A stretch of 64,000 nucleotides of DNA. Origin: Escherichia coli (GTDB lineage Bacteria > Pseudomonadota > Gammaproteobacteria > Enterobacterales > Enterobacteriaceae). The stretch lies in assembly GCF_003018255.1 (NCBI RefSeq), contig NZ_CP027440.1, one strand, 5' to 3'. Shown here one piece after another: positions 40,101-43,100 of this stretch. A program made the position numbers. Numbering within the stretch: the first letter of the stretch is position 1; each line of letters opens with the position of its first letter.

Positions 40101-43100
40101 GTACGGTCAGACCATATTTCAGGCAGTGAACGCCACCGGCATTTTCCGCCACATTGCCGCCAATTGAACAGGCGATTTGTGAGGAAGGATCCGGCGCGTA
40201 ATAGAGATTATGCGGCGCAACGGCCTGGGAGATCGCCAGATTACGCACGCCCGGCTGCACGCGCGCGCGGCGACCAACGGGGTTAATGTCGAGGATCTCT
40301 TTAAAGCGCGCCATCACCAACAACACACCTTTTTCCAGTGGCAGCGCGCCACCAGAAAGCCCGGTGCCTGCACCACGGGTCACCACCGGTACACGCAGGC
40401 GGTGGCAGACAGCCAGAATCGCCGTCACCTGTTCCATCTGCTTTGGCAAAACAACCAGTAATGGACGCGTGCGATACGCGCTCAACCCGTCACACTCGTA
40501 AGGAATGATCTCCTCATCGGTATGCAGGATCTCAAGTCCAGGGACATGCTCACGCAGTGCCATCAGTACCGATGTGCGGTCGACATCGGGTAAAGCGCCA
40601 TCAAGACGCTCTTCGTACAAGATGCTCATGAATAGGCTTCGCTTTGTTGTGTTGTGTGGCAGCTGATTTTTGCGCGCTGCTTCTGTGAACAGTTATTAAG
40701 CGGGCTTTTCGTTTTCGTCTATCTCTTTAGCTACCGGTCAGACCATTTTTTTTCCAGCTCTGTGACCTTGCCTTGGTTAACTTAATGTTAAATTGATGTA
40801 ACATAATCACTTGCGTGATGTGCGTGTTTTGCGAGTTAAGAACAGAAAAATTGGTCCTACCTGTGCACGAGGTCCGGGAATGAAAGATGAACGTCGCCCT
40901 ATTTGCGAAGTGGTTGCAGAGAGTATCGAACGGTTAATTATCGACGGCGTGTTGAAGGTCGGTCAGCCGCTTCCCTCGGAACGTCGACTGTGTGAAAAGC
41001 TCGGCTTCTCACGCTCCGCACTGCGTGAAGGGCTGACCGTGCTGCGCGGGCGCGGGATTATTGAAACGGCGCAGGGTCGCGATTCTCGTGTCGCACGGCT
41101 TAATCGGGTGCAGGACGCCAGCCCGCTGATCCATCTGTTCAGTACGCAGCCGCGAACGCTGTACGATCTGCTCGACGTTCGCGCATTACTGGAGGGCGAA
41201 TCGGCAAGGCTGGCGGCAACGCTGGGAACCCAGGCTGATTTTGTTGTGATAACCCGCTGTTATGAAAAAATGCTCGCCGCCAGTGAGAACAACAAAGAGA
41301 TTTCGCTGATCGAACATGCGCAGTTGGATCACGCTTTCCATCTCGCCATTTGTCAGGCTTCTCACAATCAGGTGCTGGTGTTTACGCTGCAATCATTGAC
41401 CGATCTGATGTTTAATTCAGTGTTTGCCAGCGTAAATAATCTCTACCATCGACCACAGCAAAAAAAGCAGATCGATCGCCAGCATGCGCGGATCTACAAC
41501 GCGGTGTTGCAGCGGCTGCCGCACGTCGCCCAGCGCGCAGCACGTGATCATGTGCGGACCGTGAAAAAGAATCTCCACGATATCGAGCTGGAAGGCCACC
41601 ATTTGATTCGCTCGGCGGTGCCGCTGGAGATGAAGCAGGGGTGACTGCCATCAAATCTGCTTTTCATACAATCGGTAACGCTTGTACGGCTCCGCCCCAA
41701 TGCGTTCCAGCATGTTATTCATGCCTGTATTGGTTTCGAGGATCCATGACATCTCCAGCGCATCGATCTTCCGACGGGCAAACGGATCGCGTAAGGCTTC
41801 AATCAATAACAGCGCAATTACCGGGCCGATGCGGCTGAACTGATACTCGTCCCGCACGCCCATCAGCGGCACTCGCGCAGTTCGCACACCGCTGACTTTC
41901 AAACGCCACAGCAATTTTGCCCAGCCGAAGGGAAAGAGCGATCCGTTCAGATCGGCAATCGCCTCGTTGATGTTCGGCAAGCCAACAATAAACGCGCAGG
42001 GTGCAGAATCAATCTCAGCGATGTAGATCATATCGTCCGGCACCAGATATTTAAGTTGATCGCCCATGGTCGCGAATTCATGTTCGGTAAACGGCACAAA
42101 TCCCCAGTTGTGCTGCCAGCCAGAATTGAAAATCTCACGCAGGATCTGCATCTCTTCGGCAAACCGCTGGCGATTGATGCAGCGAATGGTCACTTTTTTG
42201 CGCACCTGATCCATCAGTTTTTTTAGCGCCGGAGAGAACGTGAGATCGGTTCGCTGCATCCACCACGCCAGTAAATCAATGCCTTTGTGATAACCCAGTT
42301 GTTCAATATGCGCGGCATACCACGGTTTGCCGTGTGGCATCATCGCACAGGGCGGAGTGTCAAAACCTTCAATCAGTAATCCGCTTTCCTGATTGATATT
42401 CAGGCTGAAAGGCCCGCTGATCTTATTTGCACCTTGTGACTTTAACCACGCTTCCGCTGCGCCAAACAACGCGGCAAAAACCTGCGGATCATCAATGGCA
42501 TCAATCATTCCGTAATGACCGGTATCTTCACCGTAACGCTCACGGTGCAAGGTATCGATTTGCGCGGTAATACGCCCAACTATCTGCCCCGCTTTTTTTG
42601 CCACCCACGCCTGCCAGATGATATGGTCCGTCCCCGGATTCTTCGCAGACAAATGCTCGCTGCGTTCAATGAATAAAGGGGGTATCCAGTTTGGATCATC
42701 GGGATAAAGTGATGACGGAAAAGCGATAAATGCCTTAAGGTCATTTTTATTAATTACTTTTTCAATTTTAATCATCAGCAGATCGCATTCCATATCTCTG
42801 TGGATAACAAATAATTAACGGTGAAAAACAGGTTGCAACAGCAACGAACGGCATCTTAATAATCAACCCAATGAATACAAACAAAGAATAAATAGTATTT
42901 ATTAATGATTACGATAAGGTCAGAGACTACACAGAAGCGCCACAATGCCTCTTGTCGATTTAAGGCGACCGGACAAGGCTCCTTCTTAATATATTCATAA
43001 ATTAAATATCATTCACAATAAAAACAAAAAAACTCAAACATATTATTTAAATCAATGTTCATTTTCACACCGATGAAAATACTATCTCATTTATCTTTTA

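What the first reader, a model, noticed from the sequence alone, without database searches (positions are those of the whole stretch)
41651..42793. yghO: candidate N-acyltransferase divergently paired with the biosynthetic operon
A 380-aa soluble protein is transcribed divergently from the ligase-SDR-ACP-AOS operon, sharing the 371-bp AT-rich control region. In bacterial ceramide pathways the N-acylating step is performed by a GNAT-fold acyltransferase encoded near spt, and YghO could play the analogous role here. I could not identify an unambiguous acyl-CoA-binding motif by eye.
Basis: inference. Interest (0 to 1): 0.55.

Follow-up and report, generated by a model that had tools for sequence, protein, structure and literature searches.

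The report
E. coli YghO, predicted ceramide synthase

Summary
The ORF is real: 41651..42793, minus strand, 380 aa, with a conserved start probably at Met7 (374 aa). It is soluble. It is transcribed divergently from aasR-SDR-acpR-spt across a 371-bp spacer of 31% GC.

YghO is 45% identical (E 7e-112, full length) to the Caulobacter sp. K31 homologue of bCerS. That gene, like yghO, lies next to lptF/lptG paralogues. In 48 of 51 fully flanked genome loci, homologues lie within 10 kb of spt, aasR, SDR or lptFG2 genes. dN/dS is 0.05 between two E. coli strains.

The neighbouring "AOS" passes NCBI's serine palmitoyltransferase model. Padilla-Gómez et al. 2022 already list yghO (ECD_02850) as the orthologue of CC_1154 and propose it makes (dihydro)ceramide. 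The E. coli enzyme's activity, acyl donor and native product remain untested.

The parts
41651..42793 (-). yghO CDS as the longest ORF (380 aa plus stop). The conserved start is at the ATG at 42775 (374 aa). Predicted bacterial ceramide synthase (bCerS/Aca orthologue).
   Evidence: ORF list; RefSeq annotation; homologue lengths; 45% identity, E 7e-112 to the Caulobacter sp. K31 homologue; AF2 model pLDDT 97.4.
42251..42775 (-). N-terminal GNAT-like domain (residues about 1-175 in 374-aa numbering). It has no recognisable pyrophosphate-binding loop and is probably the acceptor-binding or structural half.
   Evidence: Secondary structure of the model; tandem-GNAT matches covering about 290 residues; weak profile match of residues 54-124 to AAC(6')-Iy. 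The role is inferred.
41654..42193 (-). C-terminal GNAT domain (residues about 195-374), the probable acyl-thioester-binding and catalytic half.
   Evidence: Family-profile positions 306-379 align to the motif A/B region of GNAT structures 3tt2 and 2ge3. PF00583 hits occur in 14 of 119 relatives. Coordinates were checked by translation.
41825..41875 (-). Beta4 plus a degenerate motif-A-like loop, RVPLMGVRDEYQFSRIG (R301-G317). R301 and G306 are at least 90% conserved.
   Evidence: Conservation. Alignment to GNAT 'VGVRRPWRGRGIA' needs a 4-residue insertion. Translation.
41729..41755 (-). EMSWILETN (E341-N349): beta5 and the motif-B Asn. N349 is invariant in 119 sequences; E341, W344 and L346 are at least 90% conserved.
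42092..42118 (-). Family signature WQHNWGFVP (W220-P228; consensus [AG]WxxNW[GS]F[VI]P) at the start of the C-terminal domain.
   Evidence: Conservation. The pattern retrieved 596 confirmed relatives in genome contigs.
42794..43164 (.). Divergent intergenic region of 371 bp, 31% GC. It presumably holds both promoters, but none could be called above chance.
   Evidence: The promoter scan found 3 sites against 3.4 expected. The same divergent yghO/aasR layout, with 289-957 bp gaps, occurs in 27 other genome loci.
43165..44889 (+). aasR: fatty acyl-AMP ligase, a specialised acyl-ACP synthetase.
   Evidence: NF006624 at 867 bits; RefSeq annotation. The BL21 orthologue ECD_02851 was shown to work with AcpR and SPT to form 3-oxo-sphinganine (PMC9386255).
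44886..45800 (+). SDR (NAD-dependent epimerase/dehydratase family), the presumptive 3-keto reductase (epi/CerR orthologue). Its start overlaps the aasR stop by 4 nt.
   Evidence: PMC9386255 Fig. 9 (ECD_02852).
45832..46080 (+). acpR: specialised acyl carrier protein.
   Evidence: The BL21 orthologue ECD_02853 carries 4'-phosphopantetheine (PMC9386255).
46080..47252 (+). spt: serine palmitoyltransferase.
   Evidence: NF047599 equivalog, 597.9 bits against a cut-off of 500. The BL21 SPT forms 3-oxo-sphinganine and prefers acyl-AcpR (PMC9386255).
47287..49433 (-). lptG and lptF paralogues (47287..48366 and 48363..49433), the probable sphingolipid exporter permeases.
   Evidence: TIGR04408 and TIGR04407 above cut-off; RefSeq coordinates. 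The same pair lies directly upstream of the Caulobacter homologue. LptF2/G2 function in Caulobacter, and an E. coli UTI89 locus drawn alongside, are in bioRxiv 10.64898/2026.04.12.717747.

Best explanation
YghO is the E. coli orthologue of the bacterial ceramide synthase (bCerS, also called Aca; C. crescentus CC_1154/CCNA_01212). It is a soluble protein of about 43 kDa built from two GNAT domains. The proposed pathway is as follows. AasR loads a fatty acid onto the dedicated carrier AcpR. Spt condenses acyl-AcpR with serine to give 3-ketosphinganine. YghO binds an acyl thioester in its C-terminal GNAT domain; acyl-CoA is the most likely donor, by analogy with GNATs and with bCerS. YghO transfers the acyl chain to the C2 amine of the long-chain base. 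The SDR reduces the 3-keto group, either before or after acylation. The adjacent LptF/LptG paralogues export the resulting (dihydro)ceramide. What is shown here: the fold, the orthology, the synteny, and purifying selection. What is shown in the literature: AasR, AcpR and Spt of E. coli BL21 make 3-oxo-sphinganine; the Caulobacter homologue is required for ceramide synthesis; and the authors of PMC11087976 cite their own biochemical data for bCerS. What is inferred: that E. coli YghO itself N-acylates the long-chain base, which acyl donor it uses, the order of acylation and reduction, and which residues are catalytic.
Against: No enzyme assay or knockout of E. coli YghO was found in the searchable library. 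YghO itself is below every Pfam, NCBIfam and PDB sequence threshold. Motif A is degenerate, with a 4-residue insertion and no R/Q-x-x-G-x-G/A. The usual motif-B tyrosine aligns to Leu356, so catalysis cannot be read from canonical residues. No report of native sphingolipid production by E. coli was found in the searches made here. Expression of the locus is unknown, and the AT-rich spacer gave no above-chance promoter call. The family is not exclusively linked to spt: 3 of 51 full-flank loci, a second Shimwellia copy (L010), and a YghO-FAAL fusion lie outside recognisable sphingolipid clusters. The primary bCerS paper (Stankeviciute 2022) could not be read here.
Confidence: 0.85

Rival explanations
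1. YghO is a GNAT acyl- or acetyltransferase acting on some other amine (an amino sugar, an aminoglycoside, a protein lysine or another lipid amine). On this view, its position next to the spt operon is coincidental or regulatory.
For: The closest solved structures acetylate glucosamine, mycothiol precursors or aminoglycosides. Some family members lie outside spt clusters (L049, L056, L072, L010; the P0191 fusion sits next to an MGDG-synthase-like gene).
Against: Identity to those structures is only 12-16%. In contrast, YghO is 45% identical over its full length to the Caulobacter homologue of bCerS. Synteny with spt, aasR, SDR or lptFG2 holds in 48 of 51 loci across phyla. K-12 YghO was counted among the 26 annotated GNATs tested and is not one of the lysine acetyltransferases identified (PMC6199490), although that allele is N-terminally chimeric.
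Confidence: 0.08
2. YghO is a DNA-binding transcriptional regulator of the divergent operon. This is the current K-12 RefSeq product name, and 'DNA-binding protein' appears in several UniProt and NCBI entries.
For: The annotation 'putative DNA-binding transcriptional regulator YghO' in NC_000913.3. 'DNA-binding protein' names occur among homologues. The divergent arrangement is typical of regulator and operon pairs.
Confidence: 0.02
3. YghO is a dATP pyrophosphohydrolase, a legacy name carried by many alphaproteobacterial family members.
For: Only the inherited names.
Against: No Nudix or other pyrophosphatase domain or fold was found. The fold is tandem GNAT.
Confidence: 0.01
4. YghO is a FemAB/MprF-type transferase that uses aminoacyl-tRNA rather than an acyl thioester. 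It would aminoacylate the long-chain base or another lipid.
For: FemX appears among Foldseek hits (E 6e-9, TM 0.44-0.48). Faint FemAB_like hits (5 of 119) and LPG_synthase_C hits (2 of 119) occur at E<=0.1.
Confidence: 0.03

Closest known systems
Bacterial ceramide synthase bCerS / Aca (Caulobacter crescentus CC_1154 = CCNA_01212)
   Same: Same length class (374 against 383 aa) and collinear over the full length. YghO is 45% identical to the Caulobacter sp. K31 homologue, and 44% to CC_1154 itself in published BLAST. Both are soluble with no TM segment. Both lie next to lptF/lptG paralogues and in a locus with spt, acpR, aasR and an SDR.
   Different: In E. coli all five ceramide genes are contiguous, with yghO divergent from aasR. 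In Caulobacter the gene sits about 8-10 genes from spt in a larger locus with head-group genes. The E. coli enzyme has not been assayed, and no native E. coli sphingolipid was found reported in the searches made here.
Tandem-GNAT acetyltransferases with solved structures (M. abscessus MAB_4324 7q3a; C. acetobutylicum glucosamine N-acetyltransferase 5kf1; clavulanate ORF14 2wpw; mycothiol synthase MshD 1ozp)
   Different: Identity is only 12-16%. YghO is 45-85 residues longer than those chains as listed. It has a degenerate motif A with an insertion and lacks the usual motif-B tyrosine. It is expected to use long-chain acyl donors and a lipid acceptor rather than acetyl-CoA and a sugar.
N-myristoyltransferase (2p6e, 8fbt)
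   Different: It is eukaryotic, its acceptor is a protein N-terminal glycine, and identity is 8-11%. It is not an orthologue.
Eukaryotic ceramide synthases (Lag1/CerS, TLC domain)
   Same: They catalyse the same overall reaction, N-acylation of a sphingoid base (established knowledge).
   Different: They are multi-pass ER membrane proteins of an unrelated fold. YghO is soluble and GNAT-fold. The resemblance is functional convergence, not membership.

Membership tests
bCerS / Aca (bacterial ceramide synthase) | Full-length sequence homology to the genetically and biochemically defined Caulobacter enzyme | tested here: met
   45% identity, 62% positives, 369 aa aligned, E 7e-112 to Caulobacter sp. 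K31 B0T2I5. Published figures for CC_1154 against ECD_02850: 44%, E 1e-107, 98% coverage. The C. crescentus sequence itself was not available to the tools.
bCerS / Aca (bacterial ceramide synthase) | Genomic association with spt and the other ceramide genes (acpR, aasR, cerR/epi) | tested here: met
   All are contiguous in the window. 48 of 51 full-flank homologue loci have spt, aasR, SDR or lptFG2 within 10 kb; 28 of the 51 have spt itself.
bCerS / Aca (bacterial ceramide synthase) | Soluble or peripheral protein without transmembrane segments | tested here: met
   Maximum Kyte-Doolittle 19-residue mean is 1.36. The AF2 model is fully globular. bCerS is reported to be a peripheral cytoplasmic protein (PMC11087976).
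bCerS / Aca (bacterial ceramide synthase) | Catalyses N-acylation of 3-ketosphinganine or sphinganine | not testable with these tools
   Needs an enzyme assay. There is only an indirect hint: ceramide-like TLC spots in BL21 making 3-oxo-sphinganine (PMC9386255).
bCerS / Aca (bacterial ceramide synthase) | Required for ceramide formation in vivo | not testable with these tools
   No E. coli yghO lipid phenotype was found in the literature searches.
GNAT superfamily (tandem-GNAT subgroup) | GNAT alpha/beta fold, duplicated in one chain | tested here: met
GNAT superfamily (tandem-GNAT subgroup) | Pfam GNAT profile match (PF00583 or a relative) | tested here: inconclusive
   YghO has no hit even at E<=10. 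14 of 119 relatives match at E<=1e-3 and 49 of 119 at E<=0.1.
GNAT superfamily (tandem-GNAT subgroup) | Motif A pyrophosphate-binding loop R/Q-x-x-G-x-G/A after beta4 | tested here: inconclusive
   The region aligns (profile 306-379 to 3tt2 and 2ge3), but with a 4-residue insertion. The YghO sequence is DEYQFSRIGPV, with only Q312 and G317 partly matching.
GNAT superfamily (tandem-GNAT subgroup) | Motif B Asn at the start of alpha4, and a Tyr general acid | tested here: inconclusive
   The Asn is present and invariant (N349). The Tyr position of 2ge3 'LYEKIGF' aligns to Leu356, so the canonical Tyr is absent.
FemAB-type aminoacyl-tRNA transferases | Closest fold and profile match to FemX/FemA, usually with a coiled-coil insertion | tested here: not met
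DNA-binding transcriptional regulators (the K-12 annotation) | A recognisable DNA-binding domain (HTH or similar) | tested here: not met
   No such Pfam or NCBIfam hit. The whole chain is GNAT fold.
Eukaryotic CerS (Lag1/TLC) | Multi-pass membrane protein with a TLC/Lag1 domain | tested here: not met
   No TM segment, no TLC Pfam hit, and a GNAT fold.

The most novel reading that the evidence does not exclude
Most E. coli strains, though not K-12, could make and export a ceramide-type outer-membrane lipid under conditions that derepress the AT-rich yghO/aasR spacer. In this reading, YghO would take its acyl chain from the dedicated acyl-AcpR rather than from acyl-CoA. Both chains of the lipid would then come from the AasR/AcpR channel. 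Nothing here excludes this. A natural YghO-FAAL fusion elsewhere (P0191) shows that the family can be physically coupled to fatty-acid activation. The existence of the locus and the role of YghO are already in the literature; only the donor choice and native production would be new.
Probability: 0.2. Interest if true: 0.55.

Novelty: already known. Interest (0 to 1): 0.28.

Why it matters
In textbook accounts (my own knowledge), E. coli membranes contain no sphingolipids. Yet 75% of complete E. coli genomes carry an intact, selectively maintained five-gene ceramide pathway plus LptFG-like exporter genes. YghO is the step that turns a long-chain base into a two-chain lipid. The practical value of this check is in annotation. 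'Putative DNA-binding transcriptional regulator' (K-12), 'DNA-binding protein' and 'dATP pyrophosphohydrolase' are wrong labels for a large family: 6435 representatives of 50%-identity clusters (E<=0.001), with no Pfam or NCBIfam model. The scientific idea itself was published in 2022, so the finding adds confirmation rather than discovery.

Tried and rejected
(1) Single-sequence searches of YghO against Pfam, NCBIfam and PDB sequences returned nothing meaningful. Only the family profile and the structure model resolved the fold.

(2) The search for related loci with the 119-sequence alignment failed because no stretch was conserved enough. A 15-sequence alignment worked.

(3) I looked up ten 50%-cluster representatives to find a named Caulobacter member. 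None was found. A second homology search, seeded with a Robiginitomaculum homologue, found Caulobacter sp. K31.

(4) The primary bCerS paper (Stankeviciute 2022; DOI and PMC8891067) is not held. What bCerS does is therefore cited through later papers by the same and other groups.

(5) The promoter and terminator scan of the spacer gave no more sites than shuffles. Repeats in the spacer are weak and AT-driven. No regulatory element is claimed.

(6) The YghO-FAAL fusion P0191 was examined as a possible Rosetta-stone link to AasR. Its FAAL part is below the PRK09192 cut-off and its contig has no spt, so it is not used as evidence for the E. coli pathway.

(7) The regulator, Nudix and FemAB readings were considered and rejected on the fold.

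(8) I searched for any report of native E. coli sphingolipids or a yghO phenotype. None was found beyond PMC9386255.

Full report
OBSERVATION

The window is an E. coli chromosome segment. It runs sslE-glcABGFEDC, yghO, a four-gene plus-strand operon, lptG/lptF paralogues, and then ytfJ-like through yghS, yghT and pitB. It is 100% identical to NZ_CP116067 over 5.8 kb.

The ORF at 41651..42793 on the minus strand encodes 380 aa, and RefSeq calls it 'protein YghO'. The spacer to the RefSeq start of the ligase gene (43165) is 371 bp at 31% GC, in a 52% GC window. The protein has no hydrophobic segment.

One refinement concerns the start. Homologues outside E. coli are almost all 374 aa and begin at the equivalent of Met7, the ATG at 42775.

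WHY NO MOTIF WAS VISIBLE BY EYE

YghO on its own hits nothing in Pfam (even at E<=10), in NCBIfam, or in PDB sequences. The family is nevertheless large. There are 6435 representatives of 50%-identity clusters at E<=0.001, of which 1104 are at E<=1e-30. Nearly all are 370-400 aa and collinear.

In a 119-member alignment, the invariant or near-invariant positions include R68, P122, G132, W220, N223, W224, P228, R301, G306, E341, W344 and N349. Scanning each member separately, 14 of 119 reach PF00583 (GNAT) at E<=1e-3 and 49 of 119 at E<=0.1.

The family profile aligns positions 306-379 to the motif A/B region of GNAT structures 3tt2 (E 0.0015) and 2ge3 (E 0.0087). The invariant N349 falls on the motif-B Asn. 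There is a four-residue insertion in the motif-A loop (YghO DEYQFSRIG), and Leu356 sits where many GNATs have the catalytic Tyr.

FOLD

With the alignment, AlphaFold2 gives pLDDT 97.4 and pTM 0.93, with 373 of 374 residues above 90.

FemX is a much weaker match, and no DNA-binding domain is present. AFDB50 returns only family members. They carry three conflicting legacy names: N-acetyltransferase, DNA-binding protein/regulator, and dATP pyrophosphohydrolase.

ORTHOLOGY AND CONTEXT

The neighbouring AOS exceeds NCBI's curated cut-off for serine palmitoyltransferase (597.9 against 500 bits). The ligase is a PRK09192 fatty acyl-AMP ligase (867 bits). The two minus-strand permeases pass the LptG and LptF equivalogs.

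YghO is 45% identical (E 7e-112, 369 aa) to Caulobacter sp. K31 B0T2I5. That gene directly follows lptF/lptG paralogues and precedes a nucleotidyltransferase. This is consistent with the layout described for C. crescentus ccna_01212 (bCerS), 01213 (LptG2) and 01214 (LptF2).

Among 80 genome loci encoding homologues, 68 have spt, aasR, the SDR or lptFG2 within the sequence held. Among the 51 with full 10-kb flanks, 48 do (28 with spt itself). 27 loci share the same divergent yghO/aasR arrangement. These range from Enterobacterales, Pseudomonas and Nitrococcus to Gemmatimonadetes, unclassified Betaproteobacteria and Desulfuromonadales MAGs.

dN/dS between two E. coli strains is 0.05 at dS 0.35. 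The 5.8-kb region is at least 80% covered in 4069 of 5426 complete E. coli genomes.

In K-12, IS5 has replaced the first 13 residues in 380-aa numbering and deleted everything from aasR to part of yghQ. There the remnant is labelled 'putative DNA-binding transcriptional regulator'.

LITERATURE

Padilla-Gómez et al. 2022 (PMC9386255) worked on exactly this locus in BL21(DE3). AcpR (ECD_02853) carries phosphopantetheine. AasR, AcpR and SPT of E. coli together form 3-oxo-sphinganine, and SPT prefers acyl-AcpR.

Their Fig. 9 lists 'aca: CC_1154, yghO ECD_02850'. Table S2 gives 44% identity and E 1e-107. [quoted passage not shown]

Uchendu et al. 2024 place Caulobacter bCerS as a cytoplasmic peripheral-membrane acyltransferase acting on 3-ketosphinganine before a periplasmic CerR. 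The Geiger group proposes the reverse order. Uchendu et al. 2026 show that LptF2/G2 form a complex that interacts with LptB, and present genetic evidence implicating them in sphingolipid transport. They draw the E. coli UTI89 locus alongside.

Christensen et al. 2018 included K-12 YghO among the 26 annotated GNATs they tested. It is not one of the lysine acetyltransferases they identified.

MECHANISM AND CONFIDENCE

The best explanation (about 0.85) is that YghO is the bCerS orthologue. Its C-terminal GNAT domain binds an acyl thioester. The acyl chain is transferred to the C2 amine of the Spt product, or of its reduced form. The ceramide is then handed to LptF2G2.

The fold, orthology, synteny and selection are shown here. 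The upstream steps are shown in the literature. The YghO reaction itself, its donor (acyl-CoA or acyl-AcpR), the order relative to the SDR, and the catalytic residues are all inferred.

The rivals have little support. They are another GNAT substrate, a regulator, a dATPase, and FemAB-like aminoacyl transfer.

VERDICT

The novelty rating is 'already known': the assignment is in print and the homologue is characterised. The remaining open points are experimental, namely activity of the E. coli enzyme, native expression and native product. Interest is low to moderate.

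Noticed in passing
window 47287-49433 (minus strand): A second lptG/lptF pair lies immediately after spt. Both pass the NCBIfam LptG and LptF equivalog cut-offs, so RefSeq names them as the LPS exporter permeases. They are probably the sphingolipid-specific LptF2/G2 described in Caulobacter in 2026. The same pair flanks YghO homologues in Nitrosomonas, Pseudomonas and Caulobacter.
   Followed up: partly
window 49463-54624: Downstream of lptF2 lie several more genes. They are a YtfJ-family protein, a 274-aa protein with no family, a MOP-flippase-like protein (yghQ), and three P-loop proteins weakly resembling dTMP kinase (yghR, yghS, yghT; all far below cut-off). They could be head-group, flipping or kinase functions for the lipid, by analogy with the ceramide phosphoglycerate genes of Caulobacter. 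This was not tested.
   Followed up: partly
L084 (NC_000913.3 3129043-3131340) compared with window 42750-51000: In K-12 MG1655 an IS5 element abuts yghO. The first 13 residues in 380-aa numbering are replaced by 23 residues read from the IS5 junction. Everything from aasR to part of yghQ is missing. K-12 and the ASKA clone of yghO are therefore poor models for this pathway.
   Followed up: yes
P0191 / L085 8001-10823: A 940-aa metagenomic protein fuses a YghO-like domain (residues 5-374, 36% identity) to a fatty acyl-AMP ligase. Its contig has no spt but has an MGDG-synthase-like glycosyltransferase nearby. This suggests that some family members N-acylate other lipids.
   Followed up: partly
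L010 (Shimwellia pseudoproteus, second copy); L049, L056, L072: These YghO homologues (43-74% identity) have none of the sphingolipid genes within 10 kb. Shimwellia has both a clustered and an unclustered copy. Either the paralogues have another role or the pathway genes are dispersed.
   Followed up: no
window 44886-44950: The SDR starts MNQTVAVTGATGFIG, so the Rossmann glycine motif begins at residue 8 and no signal peptide is visible. Its start overlaps the aasR stop. Caulobacter CerR is reported to be periplasmic, so the topology, and hence the reaction order, may differ in E. coli.
   Followed up: no
family-wide: The family carries three conflicting legacy names in public databases: N-acetyltransferase, DNA-binding protein/regulator, and dATP pyrophosphohydrolase. 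It has no dedicated Pfam or NCBIfam model, despite thousands of members.
   Followed up: yes
window 40811-41644: The longest glcC ORF starts at a TTG and gives 277 aa. RefSeq annotates 254 aa (765 nt), and the GlcC model matches from residue 24. The mechanical ORF overextends the 5' end. The glcC stop lies only 6 bp from the yghO stop (convergent genes).
   Followed up: no
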